Counted from the first letter of the stretch, positions 1,001-45,972 are shown. The stretch: 64,000 nt of DNA from Burkholderiales bacterium (GCA_003241965.1 QBMB01000001.1:231068-295067); one strand, 5' to 3'. Notes: generated from the letters alone by a model not told the origin. Program-made: numbers and translations.

Positions 1001-1288
1001 TGTGTCTGCGACCGCAAGAAGGTGCCGTCAGGGGGCGGCGCCAGTCACGTTGATCGGGCTGGCATGGACTTTTCGGACAGGCATTCTCACTGCCTACGGC
1101 ATTTTTCTCAGTTTTCATGGCAATGGTCAGGCTGGTCCGCATCCTTTGACGCCGGCGGACGGGCAGACGAAAATCAAGGCGTTTTCGCAAATTGCGATCT
1201 CGTGCTGCGCTTAGACGCAGCGCCTCAACCAACCCTACGGGAATCAACTTCCCAGTAGGGCAAGTGGGTTCCCGCACCTGGAGAACCC

Positions 1289-9441: not shown

Positions 9442-10713
9442 ATGACCAAACAGCTTTCCGCGTTGATCCCCGCAGCCGCATCGTTCGAGTACGGTGGGGC
9501 CGCGCTCGCCGTGGTGGGTGCCATGGCCGGAGCGTTGATCTGGGTCGTGCTGCCCTGGGCCACGCCAATCGCTCTGGTGTTGCCCTTCGTGCTGGGGCTG
9601 CTTCACAGCCAGCGCGCGGCTTTCTGGCTGGCCGGGGGCTACTACGCGGGTGCACTGAGCTTCCTCCCAGTGCTGGCGCTCAGCCCTTCCAGCACGGTGG
9701 GTGCAGCCGTGGGCATCCTTGCCATCTGGGTGTTTGGTTCGCTCATGGCTGGGGCGCTTTGGTCGCGTGGCCTGGATCCGAAGGGGAGGCCCCTCCACAC
9801 CGGCGCACGCATGCTCGCGGTGTGGTTCGTGGCGTTGTTCACGCCGCTGGGCCTGTTTGGACTCGCGCACCCTCTCTGGGGCTGGGCGTTCTCTGGCGAC
9901 GGTTTCATGGGCGTGGCATCGCTGGTCGTTGCACCACTGCTCACCTGCTTCCTGGTGCTGGCGATGCTCCACCAGCGTCACGACGGCACCAGCCCTTGGA
10001 CTTGGCACTCGGGGCGTGTTCTCTCCATTGCCTTGTGCGCTGTGCTGATCGGCAAGGGCATGGGTGACCACACGCGTGTCAGTTCGCAAGCGGGTCAGGC
10101 AGTGGGGCTACAGAGCAAGTGGGGGCCGCTGCAGGGGGGGCAGGCGCCATCGCTTGAGGATCGTCTTGAGCGTGTGAAGAAGGCGCTGCGTGAGTTCTCT
10201 CAGGTCCAGGGGGCACAGCCGCTGGTAAGTGTTCTGCTCACTGGTCAAGGCGCCTTTGGTGCGCTGCCTGCCCAGCCGCTGCTGGCGCCCGAAGATCGCC
10301 GCGGTATCACCGTGGGGCTCGGCGGAACGGTTTCGTCGCTTCCTGCAGTGATGTTGCTCCCTGAGGGTGGCGAGCCGCGTGTCGTGTGCTCGGCCTCGTT
10401 GCCTTCGGTGCTGTACGCATGGGCAATGCCCAGCAATGCTTGCATGGGCGATTCTCGTGTCCTGGCCGTCCCAGTTGGTGGCGGAACGAGCCAGAGCCTT
10501 CGGGTGCTGATGGGCGATGAGGCTTTGTTCGGCGGCCTGCAGGTGCTCGAGCAGCTGGCGCGGTCTCGGCAGTCGTTGGCGCTGGTGACCACTGTGCAGG
10601 ATCGTGCCGGCGTCCCTGCGCACACGGTTCAGATCAAGCACTTCAAGGCGATGTCGCTGCTCACCAAGACGCCCCATCTGCTGGCCACGAACCAACTGGT
10701 CGCCATCGATTGA
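9442..10713 (+). CDS. Multi-pass membrane protein, Lnt/TraB-like, apparently degenerate nitrilase domain
   Basis: About 7 TM segments with GGYYAG and HPLWGW motifs. The expected PES and ICYE positions read TGQG and MGDE. Confidence 0.55.
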   Translation: MTKQLSALIPAAASFEYGGAALAVVGAMAGALIWVVLPWATPIALVLPFVLGLLHSQRAAFWLAGGYYAGALSFLPVLALSPSSTVGAAVGILAIWVFGSLMAGALWSRGLDPKGRPLHTGARMLAVWFVALFTPLGLFGLAHPLWGWAFSGDGFMGVASLVVAPLLTCFLVLAMLHQRHDGTSPWTWHSGRVLSIALCAVLIGKGMGDHTRVSSQAGQAVGLQSKWGPLQGGQAPSLEDRLERVKKALREFSQVQGAQPLVSVLLTGQGAFGALPAQPLLAPEDRRGITVGLGGTVSSLPAVMLLPEGGEPRVVCSASLPSVLYAWAMPSNACMGDSRVLAVPVGGGTSQSLRVLMGDEALFGGLQVLEQLARSRQSLALVTTVQDRAGVPAHTVQIKHFKAMSLLTKTPHLLATNQLVAID

Positions 10714-11141
10714 CCCTGATCGCAAGCTCTCCAATAATGGGCCTGTCATCTGGTTTCCAGAGGCGGTGCAGATGGGACACTTGAACCTTCCGATCAATAA
10801 CTGCCCTTTGCGACGGCGACGGGCTACCTGAAAAGGTAACTGCAAGATGAAAGGGGTTCTTTGAACTCCTCATGGCGGGGGGCCTCGGCTCCCTGCCCAT
10901 GAAATTGCTGGATAGAATTCGCCAACGGGCAAGACGTGACGGCTTGGTAAACGAGCTGTGAGGTCTTCCTCGACGTAGTCGAAAAGAACGAAGCTGCAAA
11001 GCTCCGTTGCGTGTCCTGTACACGCCATTAACTGGTCTTGCGCACGAAAGTGCTCCTGATCGCCACCAACCTCCCTCGTGGGCACCTGTTGCCCATTGGG
11101 GTGATGGCGTGCCATGAGGTCTTCCTTCCAAGGTAAATCTC

Positions 11142-11279
11142 ATGAAAGCACTCGCCATCTCCGCCATCATCGCCATCGCAACCGTCAGCCTGGGCTCCAC
11201 TGTCCTGGCCAAAGGCACTTCGTTGGTGACCGAGCGAAACGCACAGATTCAATCCATCCTGGATGAAGCTGGCAAGTAA
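11142..11279 (+). CDS. 45-aa hydrophobic/secreted peptide, copy 1 (MKALAISAIIAIATVSLGSTVLAKGTSLVTERNAQIQSILDEAGK)
   Basis: AAGG RBS-like motif, N-terminal hydrophobic helix, paralog at 12008. Below the ORF-track cutoff. Confidence 0.8.
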   Translation: MKALAISAIIAIATVSLGSTVLAKGTSLVTERNAQIQSILDEAGK

Positions 11280-11575
11280 CAGCCGCAAGGCAGACACCGG
11301 GAGTCCTTCGGGACTCTCGGGCGTCGTTACTCATCCCACACCCTAGATACAACCGCCTTTCGGGCAAGACGTGACCGCTCTGTGCAGAGCCGTGAGGTCT
11401 TCCTCGACGTAGTCGAAAAGAACGAAGCTGCAAAGCTCCGTTGCGTGTCCTGTACACGCCATTAACTGGTCTTGCGCACGAAAGTGCTCCTGATCGCCAC
11501 CAACCTCCCTCGTGGGCACCTGTTGCCCATTGGGGTGATGGCGTGCCATGAGGTCTTCCTTCCAAGGTAAATCTC

Positions 11576-11713
11576 ATGAAAGCACTCGCCATCTCCGCCA
11601 TCATCGCCATCGCAACCGTCAGCCTGGGCTCCACTGTCCTGGCCAAAGGCACTTCGTTGGTGACCGAGCGAAACGCACAGATTCAATCCATCCTGGATGA
11701 AGCTGGCAAGTAA
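11576..11713 (+). CDS. 45-aa hydrophobic/secreted peptide, copy 2 (identical)
   Basis: Same sequence as copy 1, offset by 434 bp. Confidence 0.8.
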   Translation: MKALAISAIIAIATVSLGSTVLAKGTSLVTERNAQIQSILDEAGK

Positions 11714-12007
11714 CAGCCGCAAGGCAGACACCGGGAGTCCTTCGGGACTCTCGGGCGTCGTTACTCATCCCACACCCTAGATACAACCGCCTTTCGGGCA
11801 AGACGTGACCGCTCTGTGCAGAGCCGTGAGGTCTTCCTCGACGTAGTCGAAAAGAACGAAGCTGCAAAGCTCCGTTGCGTGCCACCTGCACGCCATCAAC
11901 TGATGAGTCCACTCCGGTGTTCTTGTCGTACATCAAACTCCCGCGCGGGCAAATCCTTTGCCCCTTGGGGAGCGGATTGCTTGGCGGGTTTCCATCTGGA
12001 GACCTTC

Positions 12008-12142
12008 ATGAAAGCAATTCTGCTGATCGTTGCAACGCTGCTCGTTGGTTACTTCGCCATCGGCACCGGCGTTTCCGCCACCGACCAGGTGGAGAAACGC
12101 ACCTCTCACATTGAGAAGGTGCTGGAGGATGCAACCAAGTAA
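12008..12142 (+). CDS. 44-aa paralogous peptide (MKAILLIVATLLVGYFAIGTGVSATDQVEKRTSHIEKVLEDATK)
   Basis: GGAG RBS. Same architecture as copies 1-2 (MKA start, hydrophobic helix, R..I..(I/V)L..A.K end). Confidence 0.8.
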   Translation: MKAILLIVATLLVGYFAIGTGVSATDQVEKRTSHIEKVLEDATK

Positions 12143-12163
12143 ACAGTTGCGTTGACTGAGAAC

Positions 12164-12193
12164 AGGGGATGGGCTTCGGCCCTCCCCTTTTTT
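12164..12193 (+). terminator. Intrinsic terminator ending the peptide array
   Basis: AGGGGATGGGC-TTCG-GCCTCCCCTTTTTT. Confidence 0.8.
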
Positions 12194-12425
12194 CAACTAC
12201 CCATTCCTGAGCGTGAGCAGTGCTGACTGCCCTGGCAATTGCCAGAGCCGTGAACACTTCTCGATGCATATCGGGCAGAGCTGGTCTTCGTGCCAGCAAA
12301 CACCACGCGGTTCACCCCGCAAACATCAACCCCGGCCGGGAACGCTTCCCGGTAAGGGGGGCATCTCGGCTATCCAGCTGGAGGCCAGATGGAACCAGTC
12401 ATCGCCGGCATCAGGGAGCAACCCC

Positions 12426-13133
12426 ATGAACGCCGCAGCGAGTGAATCCACCCCGCAATACCGACAGCTTCACCTGCCGATGTTCCTCCGCCATGAAATC
12501 GAGGCGGTGGAACAAGCCCAGCGACAGTCAGACCTGCGCAGAGACAAGGCCCTCAAAAAGTCCGGTGCACCCAAGACCTTCAAGGTAAGGGTCGCGTCCG
12601 CGGCTGAGGACTTGTTCGATGCAATTGATGACCGCTTGCTGGACATGCCGCTTGGAGGCGCCGAAGAGGGCAACGAACTGAACTGCGAAATTGACCCCCT
12701 GCGGGTCGAGATCGTGGAGATGTTTGACGCCGCTGATGCGCAGGAATCCGAGTGGTCCGATGCCGCCGTCGAGGAGTTACACGAAGCAGTCTTGCACTAC
12801 TCGTTGAAGCTCCTCCAGGCACGAGGCAACGGAGCAGAGAAGAAGGAGGTCCTGCAGTGGATCTTCGCCCCACCCACCATGGTTGCATTGGTCCACGACC
12901 AACAGATGCAGCCCGTCGAGGTATTCCTACCTCAAAACGCGACACCTTTCTCTTTCGAACAGTGCTGCCGCATCTGCGGCTACAGCTCTGAACGGCTCAT
13001 GGATGGCTTAGTCCCCATCCTCAAAGAGATCGGCCTTGGAAATGTCTTTAAGGAACTTTTCGATGGAAACAAAACTGACCGCCCAACAGCGGTACAACGT
13101 GCGATCGACCTTCGGGTTGATGGAAGCACCTGA
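12426..13133 (+). CDS. Hypothetical protein preceding the CobS-like AAA
   Basis: ATG at 12426 after GGGAG; contains VLQWIF...PFSFEQCCRICG; overlaps the next gene. Confidence 0.7.
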   Translation: MNAAASESTPQYRQLHLPMFLRHEIEAVEQAQRQSDLRRDKALKKSGAPKTFKVRVASAAEDLFDAIDDRLLDMPLGGAEEGNELNCEIDPLRVEIVEMFDAADAQESEWSDAAVEELHEAVLHYSLKLLQARGNGAEKKEVLQWIFAPPTMVALVHDQQMQPVEVFLPQNATPFSFEQCCRICGYSSERLMDGLVPILKEIGLGNVFKELFDGNKTDRPTAVQRAIDLRVDGST

Positions 13134-14037
13134 AACTGCAGAGATCCCCGGCCTCGCGCCTGGTCTCACCGGCGTCCCACCTTGCGACAACACCTACGTG
13201 TTCGATGCTGAGCGCATGCGCCAGCTGACGATGTTCTGGGTGGGGGGCTTCAAAGCCCTCTTGATCGAAGGTGACCCGGCAGCGGGCAAAACCTCGCTGA
13301 TCGAACAGTGGCATGCGCGTCTGAACGTGCCGCTCTACAAGGTGCCTTGCTCACCGACCACCGAAAGCTTCCGCCTGATCGGTCAGCTCCTGCCGACCGA
13401 AGATGGCAAGCTGGCGTGGAAGGATGGCCCGGTGCTCAAAGCTTGTCGTGAGGGCACCTCGGTGCTGCTCGATGAGTACAACACGCTCGACCCGGGCGAA
13501 GCCACCGCGCTGAACATGCTGCTGGAGGGCTACTCGTGGACGATCCCCGAAACGGGTGAAACCATTCTGCCCGCGAAGACCACGCGGTTCTTCGCAACGC
13601 AGAACGCCGTTGACAGCAAGGCTGCAGTGGCGGGCCGCAACATCCAGGACGTGGCCAACGACGATCGTTTCTCCTACATGGAGGTCGATTACCTCAAGCC
13701 CGAGCTGGAAGAGGCGCTGGTGCTGCGGCACCTGCTTGCCGGCAAGGTGGACAAGGCGGTGGCCGAGCAGATTTCCAGGATCTGCGTGAAGGTCGCCAAC
13801 AACGTGCGCGTGGCGTTCCGACAGGACGCGCCAGGTGTGGACAAGCCCTTGTCCACGCGAGTCGTGTTGCGTTGGGCCAAGTACACCGTCATGTACCAAA
13901 GCGTCATGAAGGCACAGAACCGAAGCGGGTTGCATTACGCGATTCGTCAGGCGGTGCGCATGAGTGCAGCCATGGCCGGAGCGGTCAACGAGCAGATCAC
14001 GGCCGTCGCAGGCTATGACGAAGACATGAACAGCTGA
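13063..14037 (+). CDS. CobS/CbbQ/MoxR-type AAA+ ATPase
   Basis: GDPAAGKTS Walker A, LLDEYN Walker B, WKDGPVL, FATQN and DRF. ATG at 13063 follows AAGGA. Confidence 0.9.
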   Translation: METKLTAQQRYNVRSTFGLMEAPETAEIPGLAPGLTGVPPCDNTYVFDAERMRQLTMFWVGGFKALLIEGDPAAGKTSLIEQWHARLNVPLYKVPCSPTTESFRLIGQLLPTEDGKLAWKDGPVLKACREGTSVLLDEYNTLDPGEATALNMLLEGYSWTIPETGETILPAKTTRFFATQNAVDSKAAVAGRNIQDVANDDRFSYMEVDYLKPELEEALVLRHLLAGKVDKAVAEQISRICVKVANNVRVAFRQDAPGVDKPLSTRVVLRWAKYTVMYQSVMKAQNRSGLHYAIRQAVRMSAAMAGAVNEQITAVAGYDEDMNS

Positions 14038-14046
14038 GGCCTGGAA

Positions 14047-14772
14047 ATGAATCAGGTCTTTGATGTTTACAGCCACAGCAGCAAGGGGCAGTGGGGCTTT
14101 AGCGCCTCAGGCTCCGAGGTCTGGACCGCCGAGATCAAACCCGGTGGCGCCCTCAAGCTGGAGCGAATCGAGTCCATCAAGCTGGGAGCGCAGTTGACCA
14201 AACGAGTCCGCATGGGCTTCACGAGGATGACGCGCTCGAAGTACCTGCACCAGGACATGACTCCGCAAGGGGAAGTGGTTGGTGAGTTCAGTGAGGTCCA
14301 TCCGGACGTTCACTCGGCTCAGGGGTACAGCTTGGTGCTGATGGTGACAAAGCCGTTTGCGAAACCTGAGCAGTCGCAGATCGAGGAGTGGGAAACCACC
14401 CTTCAGTCTGTGGGCGGCATCAGCGAACGCGCAACGGCCTGGCTAAAGCGTCAGGAAGCTGCCCAGCAGTACTTCACGGCGTTCGATGAGCACCCCGCGT
14501 TCGCGCTGGTGCTCTCTGAGTGGGCACTGCGCAACAAGCAGATCCTGCTGTGCAACAAGGGGACCGTTCCGATGGTCCCGCCGATCAGGGACCCGATGGG
14601 CTGGAAGCAATTCCTGTCCGGGTGGTTCACAGAGGCAGACGTGCAGAAGGCTCTGGAGCAGTTGGGGTGGTCGCTACGCGACGCCCTGCTGCAGCCCGCT
14701 GCAACCGACAACAACAACCTCGCCGACGAAGCCGACAGCTGGATAGCTGAGGCGGGTCAGGCGGCCTTTTAA
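14047..14772 (+). CDS. Hypothetical protein
   Basis: 241-aa ORF, GAGG RBS, tightly packed in the operon. Confidence 0.75.
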   Translation: MNQVFDVYSHSSKGQWGFSASGSEVWTAEIKPGGALKLERIESIKLGAQLTKRVRMGFTRMTRSKYLHQDMTPQGEVVGEFSEVHPDVHSAQGYSLVLMVTKPFAKPEQSQIEEWETTLQSVGGISERATAWLKRQEAAQQYFTAFDEHPAFALVLSEWALRNKQILLCNKGTVPMVPPIRDPMGWKQFLSGWFTEADVQKALEQLGWSLRDALLQPAATDNNNLADEADSWIAEAGQAAF

Positions 14773-14784
14773 CAGGTACAAAAA

Positions 14785-15792
14785 ATGAGAGAGATTGTTT
14801 TCCTCCTCGGCTTCATCTTCAAGGGCCCTCTGGTCCTTGTGATTGCAGCCGCAAAGATGATGCGCAGAACCCAGCTGGTGGCAGCTGCTCCGCTGAAGAA
14901 CGCCGTGGCTACGCGAAAGCTGGCCAAGGCAACTGCCAAGTTGGCCGCGAGTTCCGCAACCAGCGCATCTGCAGCCTCGGCTGCTGTGCGTGAGGTGGCG
15001 CTTGAACGACCGACTGGGATGGCTCAGACAGCTGACTTTGAAGTCGCTGACAGGATCATCTCGATTCGTCTGGTCCCCCCGGTGGGCGTGCTCAACATGC
15101 GCGTCTATCAGGAATCCAAGGTGATCAAACGTGACTTGATCATTCATGAGCCTCGCTTGCGAGCCATCATGCGTGGTCGACGCTTCACCTTCCCCGATGC
15201 GCCGTTCGACCCCAAGGCGGACCTCGAAGGAATCAAAGACGAGACGGTGCAGCTGGCCGAGAAGCTCATCAACGATGTTGGCAACGCGCGCGTCAAAGCG
15301 CACAAGCCACCAAAGGATGAGTTCAAGGTCAAGCCCGAAGCGGCCAAGCCGGTCGACACGGCCGCGAAGGCTGTCAAGGCGCCCGTGGTGCAGGCCCCGC
15401 CTGTGTCGAAGGTCCAAGCCACGCCCCCGGCGCCCGCAACGGCACCGAGAGCGCCCAGGCAGGAACAGAAACCAGTGGCGAACCGAGTGTTTGCGCCGCA
15501 ACCCACCGTGGGCATCACCTACGTTGGCAAGCTGACGCAGGCAGGAGCACACAAGGTCACACCGAGAGGTCGTGACCCCTACGAGGTGTTCCAGGCAACC
15601 ATTGAAATGGACAACGGCGCGGTGCTCCCTCTGCGCGGTGCCGAACTCGAGCGAGAGCTTGAGTCGGCTGGATGTCGCATTGGAGAGCGCGTCGCGATCA
15701 CCCCCATGGGTAAGGTTCCGGTGGCGCTGTCCAGCGGCGGCGAGGGAAGCAAGAACCTCTACAAAGTTGACAACCTCGCGGAGACCGCATGA
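14785..15792 (+). CDS. Hypothetical protein (N-terminal membrane anchor, Pro/Ala linker, C-terminal beta domain)
   Basis: 335-aa ORF; ATGA overlap with ssb. Confidence 0.75.
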   Translation: MREIVFLLGFIFKGPLVLVIAAAKMMRRTQLVAAAPLKNAVATRKLAKATAKLAASSATSASAASAAVREVALERPTGMAQTADFEVADRIISIRLVPPVGVLNMRVYQESKVIKRDLIIHEPRLRAIMRGRRFTFPDAPFDPKADLEGIKDETVQLAEKLINDVGNARVKAHKPPKDEFKVKPEAAKPVDTAAKAVKAPVVQAPPVSKVQATPPAPATAPRAPRQEQKPVANRVFAPQPTVGITYVGKLTQAGAHKVTPRGRDPYEVFQATIEMDNGAVLPLRGAELERELESAGCRIGERVAITPMGKVPVALSSGGEGSKNLYKVDNLAETA

Positions 15793-16373
15793 TCGTTATT
15801 ACTGCACACGGCCGACTGGGCCACCAACCTGAGCTGAAAATGCTTCCGGGCGGTGGATCGGTTTGCGAGTTCCGGCTGCTGAGCTCTCGTTTCGCAAAGG
15901 GCGAGGAAGTCACCGAAGCGGTGACCTTCTTCTGCTTCGATGAAGAAGCCGAGAAGTTCTGCGAGTCCACGGAGAAGGGGCAACTCATCTCCGCGACCGG
16001 TACGCAGGAAACGTCGAGCTACAACGATGCACAGGGGGCTCGCAAGTCGTTCACCAAGTACCGGATGACCTGGTACAGCAAAGGTGCTCGGCCTCGCAGC
16101 TCCCAGCAGGGTAGCCAGCAAGGTGACAACACTGGTGGTCAACGCCCAGGCGGGGACCGACAGGGTGGTGGGTATCAAGCCAACCGAAACCAAAGCAACC
16201 AGCGCCCCTCAAACGGCGGCTACAGCCGAGCGGCCAGTCCGCAGAGCAATCAACCTGAGCAGCGCCCGCAACGGCCCGCCCAGGCGCCTTCACAGGCTCA
16301 AGCTGACTACGGTGACAGTGGCTTCGATTCGAACCTTGACGGGTTCGATGACGTGAGCACCTTCATGATCTAG
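15789..16373 (+). CDS. ssb: Single-stranded DNA-binding protein
   Basis: GRLGHQPELK OB-fold start, Q/G/N-rich linker, acidic-aromatic tail (GFDDVSTFMI). Confidence 0.9.
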   Translation: MIVITAHGRLGHQPELKMLPGGGSVCEFRLLSSRFAKGEEVTEAVTFFCFDEEAEKFCESTEKGQLISATGTQETSSYNDAQGARKSFTKYRMTWYSKGARPRSSQQGSQQGDNTGGQRPGGDRQGGGYQANRNQSNQRPSNGGYSRAASPQSNQPEQRPQRPAQAPSQAQADYGDSGFDSNLDGFDDVSTFMI

Positions 16374-16448
16374 TCCCACAACCATCCCGACCGGGGGCAC
16401 CCCCTCCGGTTCGGGGTGGGGTGTTTTCGGTCAACACCGGAGACACAC

Positions 16449-22961: not shown

Positions 22962-23061
22962 CGTCCGCAGGTCTTAGCGCTTGCATTTAACTGTCAACCC
23001 CAGCGGGAATTCACATTCCCGCGAGGGGTAGTGGGTTCCCGCTCCTCTTTGGAGTACCCAC

Positions 23062-26544: not shown

Positions 26545-26750
26545 CAGCGTTCGACATCGAGCCCTGAAAAAAGCCGGTGCACCTCTCCGTGGGGTGGTCC
26601 GCATCGATGGACGCAATGAACAAGGGCCTGGAAAATAGCCATGACTTCGCATACGCGACGATCGCAGCCAACTGGCTGCATTCAACCACCCGTTGGGGCC
26701 CTCGTGTCCCGATGGGGCATGGCGGCCCCATCTGAAAAGGAGATAGGGAC

Positions 26751-44706: not shown

Positions 44707-45972
44707 ATGAGCGCATCCGTGATAAAGCGAGCAGCCGTGCTGCGCCTGTACCCGAATCAACAGCAGGTATCGTCCCTGCGTCGATGGCAGGGTGGGCTGC
44801 GCTACGTCTGGAATGCGGTGCTGGACTGCGTGTTCACGTCGCGTGACATAAATGGCCGTTGGCCCACCAAGGCCGAGATGCAGGCCCTCATCGTCGGGAT
44901 GAAGAAGATGGAGGGGACCGAATGGATCGCCGACATCCCCGCGCACGCCCTGTTGACTCTGGCCGACGATCTTTACAAAGCCCTGGTCAACTGGTTCAAC
45001 AGTCTCTCGGGCAAGCGCAAAGGCCCAAAGATTTCCCGTCCCAGATTCCGAGGAAAGTTCGATCGGCAGTTCTCGGTCTACATGGTCAACCAGAACACCT
45101 CGTTCAGCGATGGCCTGGTAAGACTGCCTAAGCTCGGGCAGGTGAAGTTCCGGGCCGGCGACCTGCCTGCCGGACGCCTGTTGTCTAGTCGCGTCTACCG
45201 CGAAGCGAACAAGTGGTACATGGCCAGCATCTTCGAGTGCGATGCACCGGAGATGAATGCTGCACCCGTTGAGTGCATAGGCATCGACATGGGACTCAAG
45301 ACGTTGGCCACTGTCTTTGACGGGCAGGGCATCCGCGAGGTGCCCAAGCTGGGCGCCCTCCGCAGGCATGAGCAGAGGCTGAAGCGATACCAGCGTCGAA
45401 TGAGTCGCAGGGTCAAGGGAAGCAACCGCCGCACCAAGGCAAAGCTGGCTGTTGCACGCCTGCACCAGCGCATCGCCAACATCCGCAAGGACTACGCGCA
45501 CAAGGCCACCAGCGACATCGTAGCCAGTGCGCAGACGATCAAGGTCGAAACCCTCAACGTCAAGGGCTGGGCGAAGAACCGAAGCATTTCCAAGAGCACC
45601 GCCGACGCCAGCGTCGGGATGTTCCTGAACATGCTGCGCTACAAGGCCGCCTGGGCTGGGCGAAGCCTGGTTGAGGTTGGCCAATGGGAGCCGACCAGCA
45701 AGACCTGCAGCGACTGCGGCTCGCACAATGCAACGGTCGTTCTGGGCGTCAGTCGGTGGGTATGCCGCGCGTGCGGCGCGATCCACGACCGCGATCACAA
45801 CGCGGCAAAGAACATTTATGCGTACGGCGAGGAACGCCGAAACGTGACCGGCAACACGGTCGAAAGCGCGTGGACTGGTGGAGATCAGGCGGGAGAAATC
45901 CCGCCAGTGCCCCAGGTTGAAACGCGAATCTTGAAACGGACAGCGCGCAAGTCGAATTGCGCGCTTGCCTAA
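44707..45972 (+). CDS. tnpB: TnpB RNA-guided endonuclease (IS200/IS605 type), RuvC intact, no tnpA
   Basis: RLYPNQQQ HTH; IGIDMG (D), KVETLN (E), TSKTCSDCG...CRACG zinc finger, HDRDHNAAKNI (D). Confidence 0.95.
   Translation: MSASVIKRAAVLRLYPNQQQVSSLRRWQGGLRYVWNAVLDCVFTSRDINGRWPTKAEMQALIVGMKKMEGTEWIADIPAHALLTLADDLYKALVNWFNSLSGKRKGPKISRPRFRGKFDRQFSVYMVNQNTSFSDGLVRLPKLGQVKFRAGDLPAGRLLSSRVYREANKWYMASIFECDAPEMNAAPVECIGIDMGLKTLATVFDGQGIREVPKLGALRRHEQRLKRYQRRMSRRVKGSNRRTKAKLAVARLHQRIANIRKDYAHKATSDIVASAQTIKVETLNVKGWAKNRSISKSTADASVGMFLNMLRYKAAWAGRSLVEVGQWEPTSKTCSDCGSHNATVVLGVSRWVCRACGAIHDRDHNAAKNIYAYGEERRNVTGNTVESAWTGGDQAGEIPPVPQVETRILKRTARKSNCALA

What the first reader, a model, noticed from the sequence alone, without database searches (positions are those of the whole stretch)
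10926..11141. The repeat leader is a candidate novel structured RNA (or ssDNA) motif with internal covariation
Seen: AAGAC...GTCTT encloses a hairpin that is GCTTG/CGAGC in unit 1 (10942-10956) and GCTCT/AGAGC in units 2-3 (11377-11390), i.e. compensatory changes. Further stems: TCGAC/GTCGA; AGCT-GCAA-AGCT (10992-11003); GCAC-GAAA-GTGC (11042-11053); CACGCCAT/ATGGCGTG; TGGGCA/TGCCCA (GGGCAAA/TTTGCCC in unit 3). After the ORF is a cUUCGg-capped 10-bp stem (11297-11320) without a U-tract. TGAGGTCTTCCT occurs twice per unit, once just before the RBS, allowing alternative pairing. GNRA and UUCG loops favour function as RNA.
Basis: partly seen in the sequence, partly recalled or inferred. Interest (0 to 1): 0.6.

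Follow-up and report, generated by a model that had tools for sequence, protein, structure and literature searches.

The report
Structured mRNA leader locking small-peptide translation
The repeated "leader" is a real, uncatalogued, compensation-supported RNA structure in the 5' untranslated region of a plasmid mRNA; it buries the ribosome-binding site of a 45-residue membrane peptide, and its last two hairpins are a lock module that the plasmid, and also IncC resistance plasmids, place before many early genes.

Summary
Observation confirmed; interpretation supported and extended.

**The fold.** The 216-nt leader (10926-11141, repeated at 11361 and 11795) folds on the sense strand into seven hairpins, P1-P7. 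No Rfam family matches it.
- P1-P4, across 17 homologues from Hydrogenophaga, Polaromonas and Rhodoferax plasmids and metagenomes: 97% of cells paired and 13 pairs changed on both sides. None of 500 shuffles reached this; slid controls paired 30-40%.
- P5-P7 are also supported: 87% paired against 70% in shuffles.
- G-U pairs on the sense strand and GNRA/UNCG loop swaps favour RNA over ssDNA.

- A sigma-70 promoter (10710-10738), conserved in all 15 aligned homologues, lies about 190 nt upstream. The stretch between it and the leader is also structured.
- P7 hides the Shine-Dalgarno sequence and pairs with the first codons of the small ORF in every homologue.
- P6+P7, preceded by an AACCC box, is a recurrent module. 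It stands about 70-85 nt before five other genes in this window. It hits only plasmid-like contigs of this genome.
- A model built without IncC sequences finds the module 13 times in IncC plasmid pAR060302, 12 of them on one strand.
- This scan had already noted the module on an IncC plasmid (e1-1922085).

**Best reading.** It is a cis-acting translational lock. What opens it is unknown. A classical type I toxin-antitoxin locus and an ssDNA promoter are both less likely.

The parts
10710..10738 (+). Sigma-70-type promoter (TTGACC, 17 nt, AATAAT) that most likely drives the whole array
   Evidence: Scores 10 of 12 in the consensus scan. A -35/-10 pair with 17-18 nt spacing is conserved in all 15 aligned homologues.
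10745..10925 (+). Upstream structured part of the 5' UTR (hairpins U1-U5). It occurs once per array and is not part of the tandem repeat.
   Evidence: Alignment A8 gives 34 consensus pairs, 21 of them with changes on both sides. The whole 10744-11171 stretch folds with z -7.5.
10931..11025 (+). 5' domain of the leader in unit 1: P1 10931-10967, P2 10970-10982, P3 10987-11008, P4 11009-11025. The same domain lies at about 11365-11459 and 11799-11893.
   Evidence: Alignment A5, 17 sequences: 97.1% of cells paired, 13 pairs changed on both sides, 0 of 500 shuffles as high, slid controls 30-40%. Model R1 finds only these three copies in the 4.9-Mb genome.
11034..11061 (+). P5, a variable hairpin with a GNRA or UNCG loop
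   Evidence: Helix 1 of A11: 8 of 10 pairs changed on both sides. Loops are GAAA, UUCG, UACG or UCCG in different homologues.
11059..11104 (+). C/A-rich single strand ending in the AACCC-type box, plus hairpin P6. This is the first half of the recurrent lock module. Copies at 11493-11538 and 11926-11973.
   Evidence: Model R3 scores 31.8 bits, E 5e-5. Helices 2-3 of A11 are 86-91% paired.
11103..11159 (+). P7, the translation-inhibition hairpin. The inner stem pairs an anti-SD (CUUCC type) with the SD. The outer stem pairs the 5' arm with the start codon and codons 2-6.
   Evidence: MFE folds of 15 distinct homologues all pair the SD and codons 2-4. In helices 4-5 of A11, 16 of 19 pairs changed on both sides.
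11142..11279 (+). Small ORF 1: 45 aa, with an N-terminal hydrophobic helix and a conserved polar C-terminal motif. Copy 2 is at 11576-11713.
   Evidence: ORF list. The family has 23 protein clusters, all named hypothetical. No Pfam match. Protein alignment A6.
11297..11320 (+). GC hairpin after ORF 1 with no U tract, so probably not a terminator. The same hairpin follows ORF 2 at 11731-11754.
   Evidence: Sequence. The terminator scan reports nothing on the + strand here.
12008..12142 (+). Small ORF 3: 44 aa, a diverged paralogue
12166..12194 (+). Hairpin plus U tract: the only intrinsic-terminator-like site of the array
   Evidence: Sequence. Single-unit homologues carry the equivalent terminator directly after their small ORF.
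12196..12388 (+). Paralogous leader of the next operon. It has a P1-like long hairpin and a lock module at 12316-12361.
   Evidence: R1 hits the corresponding leaders in Polaromonas loci at E 8e-8 to 1e-4. R3 gives its best window hit here, 35.6 bits. Fold.
12389..12445 (+). Conserved 18-codon upstream ORF that overlaps the start (12426) of the 235-aa gene
   Evidence: Alignment A2 shows it in four plasmids. Descriptor hit.
1219..1263 (+). Lock module 70 nt before the PRTRC alpha-helical-domain gene (start 1289)
   Evidence: R3 30.7 bits. The fold shows the SD paired and a stem abutting the AUG. Pfam.
16372..16418 (+). Lock module 77 nt before a 75-aa ORF that follows ssb
   Evidence: R3 31.0 bits. 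Fold.
22984..23030 (+). Lock module 78 nt before the DUF3150 gene (start 23062)
   Evidence: R3 33.0 bits. Fold, Pfam.
26675..26720 (+). Lock module 76 nt before the zinc-ribbon/Toprim primase gene (start 26751)
   Evidence: R3 31.2 bits. Pfam.

Best explanation
The finding is the tandemly repeated part of a long, heavily folded 5' untranslated region of a plasmid mRNA.

**Transcript (inferred).** Transcription starts at a conserved sigma-70 promoter (10710-10738). It runs through an upstream five-hairpin segment and then through three leader-plus-small-ORF units. It ends, at least partly, at the single terminator at 12166-12194. Read-through probably feeds the next operon, which has a paralogous leader.

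**Parts of each leader.**
- P1-P4 are a lineage-specific four-hairpin domain.
- P5 is a variable hairpin.
- A C/A-rich single strand ends in an AACCC-type box.
- P6 and P7 follow. P7 pairs an anti-SD with the Shine-Dalgarno sequence, and pairs its 5' arm with the start codon and first codons.

**Consequence.** Translation of the 44-45 aa membrane peptide is off by default. It needs an opening event: a bound protein or RNA at P6 or the box, ribosome standby loading on the single strand, or nucleolytic processing.

**Shown versus inferred.** Shown here: the fold, its conservation with compensatory changes, its strand, the promoter and terminator, and the recurrence of P6-P7 before many backbone genes of this plasmid and of IncC-type plasmids. 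Inferred: co-transcription of the array, translational repression, and the existence and nature of the opener.
For: **Fold and strand**
- The sense strand folds with z -5.95, the antisense with z -2.75. With DNA parameters the values are -4.9 and -3.1.
- P1-P4: 97.1% paired, 13 pairs with double changes, 0 of 500 shuffles as high, slid controls 30-40%.
- Upstream domain: 21 of 34 pairs have double changes.
- P5-P7: 87.4% paired against 70% in shuffles and 40-51% slid; 33 pairs have double changes (that alignment was fitted to the model).
- The SD and codons 2-4 are paired in all 15 distinct homologues, with different sequences.

**Transcription signals**
- The promoter is conserved in 15 sequences.
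- Terminators follow the small ORF in single-unit homologues.
- No Rfam match.

**Recurrence of the lock module (model R3)**
- It finds eight + strand sites in the window, 70-83 nt before starts (start positions).
- In the genome there are 11 hits, 9 on the 314-kb plasmid contig and 2 on a 49-kb contig. None fall in the other 4.5 Mb.
- The four non-seed hits also show a stem abutting the AUG.
- Other plasmids give 8-22 strand-biased hits each. IncC pAR060302 gives 13, of which 11 sit 70-88 nt before annotated starts of ssb, bet, exo, a methyltransferase and others.
Against: - There are no expression data. The transcription start, processing and translational repression are all predictions.
- The A11 alignment was fitted to the model, so its pair counts lean toward the structure.
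- A thermodynamic test of a P6/P7 alternative-pairing switch was inconclusive. P7 stayed closed in the small-ORF leaders when the P6 3' arm was blocked, and part of the script mis-assigned arms.
- No candidate RNA-binding partner (NusG paralogue, ProQ/FinO, CsrA) is encoded on the plasmid contig.
- A looser descriptor of the module has a high genomic background of 5 per 100 kb. The recurrence claim therefore rests on the covariance model.
Confidence: 0.72

Rival explanations
1. Classical type I toxin-antitoxin array. Each unit would encode a toxic membrane peptide whose inert, structured mRNA is controlled by a small antisense RNA, as in the ldr/rdl long direct repeats, hok/sok or tisB/istR.
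For: - The ORFs are small, 44-45 aa, with an N-terminal hydrophobic helix.
- The units are tandemly amplified.
- The 5' UTR is long and structured, with a buried SD. This matches the two-step logic described for type I toxin mRNAs (PMC11228461, PMC7708055, PMC5066626, PMC6733600).
- Tandem repeats plus hydrophobicity are used as search criteria for such loci (PMC8594479).
- Short hydrophobic ORFs with the same lock sit at the syntenic place in an Azonexus plasmid (28 aa) and in IncC pAR060302 (30 aa).
Against: - No conserved promoter-like site on either strand inside the units in any homologue.
- No match to Pfam toxin families.
- The same P6-P7 lock precedes genes that are clearly not toxins: primase, DUF3150, a PRTRC gene, and in IncC ssb, bet and exo. 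The lock is therefore not toxin-specific.
- The polar C-terminal tail is conserved across the family, which is unusual for pore-forming type I toxins.
- A Rhodoferax copy keeps P1-P4 but has lost the ORF.
Confidence: 0.15
2. The leader RNA, especially P1-P4 and the upstream domain, has a function of its own. It could be a dual-function or sponge-like regulatory RNA, or a platform for a plasmid protein, with the small ORF secondary.
For: - P1-P4 and their junctions are more conserved in sequence than occluding a ribosome site needs.
- A Rhodoferax contig has P1-P4 followed by a terminator-like hairpin and no recognisable small ORF.
- The promoter is near consensus, so the RNA may be abundant.
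- A paralogous 5' domain heads the next operon.
Against: - No complementary target was found in the window for the most conserved upstream segment.
- The small-ORF protein sequence is itself conserved.
- Nothing here tests a trans function.
Confidence: 0.08
3. Single-stranded DNA element used during conjugation: either an Frpo/ssi-type ssDNA promoter or a priming site on the transferred strand.
For: - The repeated, structured, roughly 200-nt non-coding segments stand before ssb-linked 'establishment' genes. All are on one strand, as with Frpo copies in F-like and IncI plasmids (PMC11541004).
- The folds remain significant with DNA parameters.
Against: - Frpo needs a long hairpin carrying -35 and -10 hexamers in the template strand. 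Here there are only short hairpins, and no conserved hexamer pair on either strand inside the units.
- Wobble pairs lie on the coding-sense strand, so the template strand would carry A-C mismatches.
- Loops swap among RNA-specific GNRA and UNCG tetraloops.
- P7 co-varies with the SD and start codon, a translation feature.
- A conventional double-strand promoter is conserved upstream.
Confidence: 0.03
4. The repeats are selected at the DNA level as substrates for single-strand-annealing repair, like the rptI repeats that Bet/Exo uses in IncC plasmids. The RNA folds would then be incidental.
For: Roy et al. 2020 (PMC7498323) showed that intergenic rptI repeats of IncC plasmids are the recombination points used to repair CRISPR cuts. 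The lock module found here lies in the same IncC block.
Against: - Copies within one plasmid differ in stem sequence but keep the pairing. That lowers their value as recombination substrates and points to selection on structure.
- No bet/exo pair was noted next to ssb in this window. This was not searched exhaustively.
Confidence: 0.02

Closest known systems
Intergenic leaders of the IncC hde/establishment block (rptI repeats and the predicted RBS-sequestering structure before vcrx089; Roy et al. 2020, PMC7498323)
   Same: - Same module: an AACCC-type box and hairpin about 70-88 nt before a start codon, followed by an SD-occluding stem.
- Same strand as the genes, and placed before many consecutive genes.
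- Same gene neighbourhood: AAA/MoxR ATPase, ssb, DUF3150, VWA, primase.
- A model built without any IncC sequence hits pAR060302 13 times.
- The window's ATPase is 29% identical to the IncC one, E 3e-34.
   Different: - The literature treats these as DNA repeats plus one predicted structure, not as an RNA family.
- P1-P4 and the upstream domain of the present leader are not found in IncC.
- Direct identity with the published rptI sequences was not checked.
Type I toxin mRNAs with inert structured 5' UTRs (tisB, zorO, dinQ, aapA1, hok; E. coli ldr long direct repeats)
   Same: - A small hydrophobic ORF.
- A 5' UTR of hundreds of nucleotides.
- An SD buried by an upstream anti-SD.
- Tandem repetition of whole units.
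- A possible standby-type single strand upstream of the locked site (PMC7708055, PMC11228461, PMC6733600, PMC5066626).
   Different: - No antisense or complementary small RNA gene was detected.
- No sequence relation to known toxin families.
- The lock is shared with ordinary genes.
- The peptide tail is conserved.
Phage Mu com-mom translational control (Com-binding hairpin next to a translation-inhibition structure; PMC6483171)
   Same: It has a two-hairpin layout: a conserved upstream hairpin directly followed by a hairpin that hides the start signals of the downstream gene. In Mu the first hairpin binds an activator that melts the second.
   Different: - No Com-like zinc-finger activator was identified here.
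- There is no sequence similarity.
- The module here is used many times per replicon.
Frpo/ssi single-stranded DNA promoters of F-like and IncI plasmids (PMC11541004)
   Same: They are repeated structured non-coding segments placed before ssb-type early genes, all in one orientation.
   Different: Frpo is a long hairpin in the template strand with -35/-10 hexamers. Here there are short sense-strand hairpins, RNA-type loops, coupling to the SD and AUG, and a normal double-strand promoter.

Membership tests
Any Rfam 15 family | Covariance-model match at or near the gathering score | tested here: not met
   There were 0 matches at gathering thresholds over 64 kb. At E<=10 over 10700-12400 only four chance-level hits appeared, 14-16 bits against cut-offs of 40-111.
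IncC-type AACCC-box translational lock leader (uncatalogued; rptI/vcrx089 structure) | C/A-rich single strand ending in an AACCC-type box, followed by a 10-13 bp hairpin closed by CCC/GGG | tested here: met
   R3 was built from 26 Burkholderiales and Rhodocyclales instances. It hits the three leaders at 23.7-31.8 bits and IncC pAR060302 at up to 37.3 bits.
IncC-type AACCC-box translational lock leader (uncatalogued; rptI/vcrx089 structure) | A directly following hairpin that pairs the SD and abuts or includes the start codon | tested here: met
   Folds of 15 small-ORF leaders, of other window instances, of non-seed genome hits and of the IncC small-ORF leader.
IncC-type AACCC-box translational lock leader (uncatalogued; rptI/vcrx089 structure) | Recurrent on one replicon, on the sense strand, at a fixed distance before many genes | tested here: met
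   The window has eight + strand hits, 70-83 nt before starts (start positions). Genome hits fall only on contigs C89 and C95. Five other plasmids give 8-22 hits each with strong strand bias.
IncC-type AACCC-box translational lock leader (uncatalogued; rptI/vcrx089 structure) | Sequence identity with the published rptI repeats of pVCR94 | not tested
   The rptI sequences are in a table and supplement of PMC7498323 that I did not retrieve. Only the co-location in the same IncC block is shown.
Type I toxin-antitoxin system | Small (<60 aa) hydrophobic, membrane-directed peptide ORF | tested here: met
   ORFs of 44-45 aa with an N-terminal hydrophobic stretch of about 20 residues.
Type I toxin-antitoxin system | Antisense or partially complementary small RNA gene with its own promoter | tested here: not met
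   No conserved promoter-like site on either strand within the units of 15 homologues. Caveat: the consensus scan is crude for beta-proteobacterial promoters.
Type I toxin-antitoxin system | Toxin mRNA translationally inert through intramolecular structure | tested here: met
   Prediction only. The SD and start region are paired in all homologues, with compensatory changes.
Type I toxin-antitoxin system | Toxicity of the peptide on over-expression | not testable with these tools
   This needs an expression experiment.
Type I toxin-antitoxin system | Homology to a known toxin family (Hok/Gef, Ldr, TisB, Fst and others) | tested here: not met
   No Pfam family at E<=0.01 for either small-ORF type. 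All 23 related clusters are unnamed. The protein atlas gave only sub-threshold hits.
Frpo/ssi ssDNA promoter | Long imperfect hairpin in the template (transferred) strand carrying -35 and -10 hexamers in duplex form | tested here: not met
   The minus strand folds only into the mirror of the short hairpins, more weakly than the plus strand. No hexamer pair is conserved inside the units on either strand.
Frpo/ssi ssDNA promoter | Position in the leading region with genes templated by the transferred strand | not testable with these tools
   oriT and the transferred strand of this plasmid type are unknown. An earlier report calls the MobH-type relaxase gene atypical (e1-5280109).
Com/mom-type activator-dependent translation-inhibition structure | Conserved hairpin immediately 5' of a start-occluding hairpin | tested here: met
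   P6 is separated from P7 by 0-3 nt in all instances.
Com/mom-type activator-dependent translation-inhibition structure | Dedicated RNA-binding activator encoded by the element | tested here: inconclusive
   No NusG paralogue, ProQ/FinO or CsrA on the plasmid contig. Zinc-finger or novel binders were not searched.

The most novel reading that the evidence does not exclude
The AACCC-box/P6-P7 module would be the RNA operator of a plasmid-wide post-transcriptional regulon shared by IncC resistance plasmids and environmental MOBH-type megaplasmids. All establishment and anti-defence genes would be transcribed but kept untranslatable until one dedicated opener releases them together after entry into a new host. 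The opener could be a Com-like protein, a small RNA or a processing nuclease. The small membrane peptide at the head of the block, and the lineage-specific P1-P4 domain, would be part of that timing device.
Probability: 0.2. Interest if true: 0.8.

Novelty: new variant of a known kind. Interest (0 to 1): 0.55.

Why it matters
SD-sequestering leaders are a known kind of control. This one differs in three ways:
- It is an uncatalogued family with unusually rich structure: twelve conserved hairpins before a 45-codon ORF.
- Its terminal two-hairpin lock is reused before many backbone genes.
- The same lock, by covariance model, stands before ssb, bet, exo and other genes of the IncC block. In the IncC plasmid pVCR94 that block was shown to let the plasmid evade restriction and CRISPR (Roy et al. 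2020, PMC7498323).

If the lock is opened by a common factor, it offers a handle on how broad-host-range resistance plasmids time their first gene expression in a new host.

It also flags short hydrophobic ORFs at the head of that block in several plasmid families. The IncC one carries no annotation in the record examined.

Tried and rejected
1. **Rfam.** Searches at gathering thresholds and at permissive thresholds gave nothing relevant.
2. **Antisense promoter or terminator.** The only minus-strand terminator-like sites (11354-11371, 11788-11805) exist because of the unit junctions. They are absent from unit 1 and from single-unit homologues. No promoter-like site is conserved on either strand.
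3. **Frpo-type ssDNA promoter.** Rejected on strand, hairpin size and lack of hexamers.
The 8-bp pairing (11020-11027 with 11104-11111) and the duplicated 12-mer as a switch are present only in the unit-1 type.
5. **Upstream decoy.** A complement of the P7 5' arm at 10863-10876 (pairs I6 and I7) is not conserved in other homologues when the sequences are inspected.
6. **P6/P7 mutually exclusive pairing.** Complementarity between the P6 5' arm and the P7 5' arm is visible in many instances. Constraint folding did not free the SD in the small-ORF leaders, and the script mis-assigned arms in several cases. I left this as a lead.
7. **Hand-written descriptor of the module.** Background in the real genome was too high, 5 per 100 kb. 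It was replaced by model R3.
8. **Plasmid-encoded NusG, ProQ or CsrA partners.** None on the plasmid contig.
10. **Literature search on PRTRC, DUF3150 and AcaB.** It returned only unrelated papers.
11. **Protein atlas for the small ORF.** Only sub-threshold, unnamed clusters.

Full report
**1. What is there.**
Window 10926-12194 holds three head-to-tail units with a 434-nt period. Units 1 and 2 are identical over 300 nt. Unit 3 keeps the first 110 nt or so and then diverges. Each unit has three parts:
- a leader of about 216 nt;
- a 44-45 codon ORF (11142-11279, 11576-11713, 12008-12142) encoding an N-terminal hydrophobic helix and a polar tail;
- a GC hairpin.

Only the third hairpin (12166-12194) is followed by a U tract.

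**2. Is it more than chance, and on which strand?**
- As RNA the sense strand of unit 1 folds at -100.7 kcal/mol (z -5.95, 0 of 200 shuffles as good). The antisense strand gives z -2.75.
- With DNA parameters the values are -4.9 and -3.1.
- Unit 3 gives z -3.8.
- No Rfam family matches the window at gathering thresholds, nor this region at E<=10.

**3. Homologues.**
- Plasmid collection: blastn and a neighbour-protein search found single-unit versions on Hydrogenophaga plasmids pBPS33-1 and pPBL-H3 and on Polaromonas sp. JS666 plasmid 1.
- Genome contigs: a scan with the downstream protein added Hydrogenophaga, Polaromonas and Rhodoferax loci.
- Metagenomes: a pattern scan added eight true loci. 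Two of them carry two-unit arrays (an A-type unit plus a B-type unit).

The window's three-unit array is therefore a recent duplication of the A unit.

**4. Structure of the leader.**
*P1-P4.* An alignment of 17 distinct 5' domains (A5) supports four hairpins, P1-P4, at 10931-11025 in unit 1.
- 97.1% of 548 cells form standard pairs.
- 13 of 33 pairs show changes on both sides.
- No shuffle out of 500 reached any of the five measures. Sliding the partners drops pairing to 30-40%.
- Single-side changes run through G-U on the sense strand and there are no A-C cells, so the sense strand is the folded one.

*P5-P7.* A second model (R2) aligned 17 distinct 3' domains.
- P5, P6 and P7 are 87.4% paired, against 70% in shuffles and 40-51% when slid.
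- 33 pairs changed on both sides.
- That alignment is fitted to the model, so it leans toward the structure.

*Loops.* Hairpin loops swap among GNRA and UNCG types between homologues. This is expected for RNA and not for DNA.

**5. What the last hairpin does.**
- In all 15 distinct homologues the minimum-energy fold pairs the Shine-Dalgarno sequence with an upstream pyrimidine anti-SD.
- It also pairs the 5' arm of the same hairpin with the start codon region and codons 2-6.
- The partners differ between lineages, and in places the coding change alters the amino acid.

P7 is therefore a conserved translation-inhibition structure.

**6. The leader is longer than reported.**
- A -35/-10 pair with 17-18 nt spacing (window 10710-10738) is conserved in all 15 aligned homologues.
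They contain five further hairpins, with 21 of 34 consensus pairs changed on both sides.
- The whole 428-nt stretch up to the first codons folds with z -7.5.
- Hydrogenophaga-type sequences carry an extra -10-like box just before P1. An internal start cannot be excluded there, but Polaromonas-type sequences lack it.
- Units 1 and 2 have no terminator. I infer that the array is one transcript.

**7. Two layers of relatedness.**
*Layer 1: P1-P4.* The P1-P4 model (R1) finds only the three copies in the 4.9-Mb genome. It also gives weaker, significant hits to the leader of the next gene in Polaromonas loci (E 8e-8 to 1e-4). That next leader (12196-12388) folds similarly. It ends in a conserved 18-codon upstream ORF that overlaps the start of a 235-aa gene.

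*Layer 2: P6 and P7.* The C/A-rich single strand ending in an AACCC-type box, plus P6 and P7, recurs widely. A 45-nt model (R3) was built from 26 instances in beta-proteobacterial plasmids. Its hits are:
- **Window:** eight + strand sites, 70-83 nt before the small ORFs, the upstream ORF, a PRTRC gene, a 75-aa ORF after ssb, the DUF3150 gene and a primase gene.
- **Whole genome:** nine hits on the 314-kb plasmid contig, two on a 49-kb contig, none elsewhere.
- **Non-seed hits:** all four show the same stem abutting the AUG.
- **Other plasmids:** 8-22 strand-biased sites each.
- **IncC plasmid pAR060302:** 13 sites. No IncC sequence was in the seed. Eleven lie 70-88 nt before annotated starts of ssb, bet, exo, a methyltransferase and other genes of the 83-107 kb block.

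The window's MoxR-type ATPase is 29% identical (E 3e-34) to the IncC ATPase at the head of that block. The two regions are therefore homologous.

Roy et al. 2020 described intergenic rptI repeats and a predicted RBS-sequestering structure in that IncC region (PMC7498323). An earlier report of this scan (e1-1922085) described the same box-plus-hairpins leader on an IncC plasmid. I tested that lead here with an independent model and it holds.

**8. The small ORF.**
- The peptide family has 23 clusters, all unnamed, with no Pfam match. The atlas gave nothing usable.
- Its polar C-terminal motif is conserved.
- Short hydrophobic ORFs with the same lock and a following hairpin sit at the equivalent place in an Azonexus plasmid (28 aa) and in pAR060302 (30 aa, not annotated in that record).
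- A Rhodoferax contig keeps P1-P4 but has no small ORF.

**9. Mechanism.**
Best supported: a cis-acting translational lock in a sense mRNA leader that is off by default. The opener is unknown. Candidates, all inferred, are:
- a factor binding the box or P6 and melting P7, as Com does at the Mu mom leader (PMC6483171);
- standby loading of ribosomes on the conserved single strand, as at tisB (PMC7708055);
- processing, as in several type I toxin mRNAs (PMC11228461, PMC5066626).

No NusG paralogue, ProQ/FinO or CsrA gene lies on the plasmid contig. A switch through alternative pairing of the P6 and P7 5' arms is visible by eye, but constraint folding did not support it.

**10. Rivals.**
- **Classical type I toxin-antitoxin array.** It fits the peptide, the tandem repeats and the inert mRNA. 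It lacks any conserved antisense promoter, and the lock is shared with ordinary genes.
- **Frpo-type ssDNA promoter.** This fails on strand, hairpin size and hexamers.
- **Selection purely as recombination repeats.** This does not explain compensatory changes between copies.

**11. Verdict.**
- The element is an uncatalogued structured RNA leader. Its 5' two-thirds are new and lineage-specific.
- Its 3' third is a member of a widespread plasmid lock module, known in the literature only as DNA repeats plus one predicted structure, and already seen by this scan on IncC DNA.

Noticed in passing
L058:538-630 (pAR060302 record about 83037-83129): A 30-codon hydrophobic ORF, not annotated in this record, lies upstream of the IncC AAA-ATPase/ssb/bet/exo block. 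An AACCC-box hairpin and an SD/AUG-occluding hairpin precede it (z -4.8), and a GC hairpin follows it. It is a positional analogue of the window's small ORFs.
   Followed up: partly
window 12389-12445: A conserved 18-codon upstream ORF overlaps the start (12426) of the 235-aa gene in another frame. It is present in four plasmids and suggests translational coupling.
   Followed up: partly
window 13036-16373: The MoxR-type AAA ATPase (29% identical, E 3e-34, to the IncC ATPase), two unknown genes and ssb look like the counterpart of the IncC host-defence-evasion operon head. DUF3150, VWA and primase genes follow, as in IncC.
   Followed up: partly
L024:1556-1700 (Rhodoferax MAG contig): A copy of P1-P4 (88 bits with R1) is followed by a terminator-like hairpin, with no recognisable small ORF or P6-P7. 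It is either a decayed unit or a free-standing RNA.
   Followed up: no
L020:3121-3330 (Azonexus hydrophilus plasmid): A 28-codon hydrophobic ORF with the same leader module and a terminator lies in the same syntenic slot. This plasmid has 22 R3 hits, 19 on one strand.
   Followed up: partly
L030:6429-7267 and L036:1-832 (metagenome contigs): These contigs carry two-unit arrays (an A-type unit plus a B-type unit). The window's third unit therefore arose by a recent duplication of the A unit joined to a B-type 5' end.
   Followed up: yes
window 11114-11266 (and 11548-11700): A 50-codon Arg/His-rich ORF in another frame starts inside the 5' arm of P7 and overlaps the small ORF. It is kept only in the unit-1 type (also L030, L036). 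It is reminiscent of mok over hok, but it is not conserved in other lineages.
   Followed up: no
genome contig C95 (49 kb), about 15765-15810 and 45198-45242, minus strand: Two further lock modules stand before 526-aa and 425-aa ORFs. These are the only R3 hits outside the plasmid contig, so C95 is probably part of the same plasmid or of another mobile element.
   Followed up: partly
window 10912-10917: A -10-like TAGAAT box lies 8 nt before the leader in Hydrogenophaga-type sequences only (an insertion relative to Polaromonas types). It could be a second, internal promoter.
   Followed up: no
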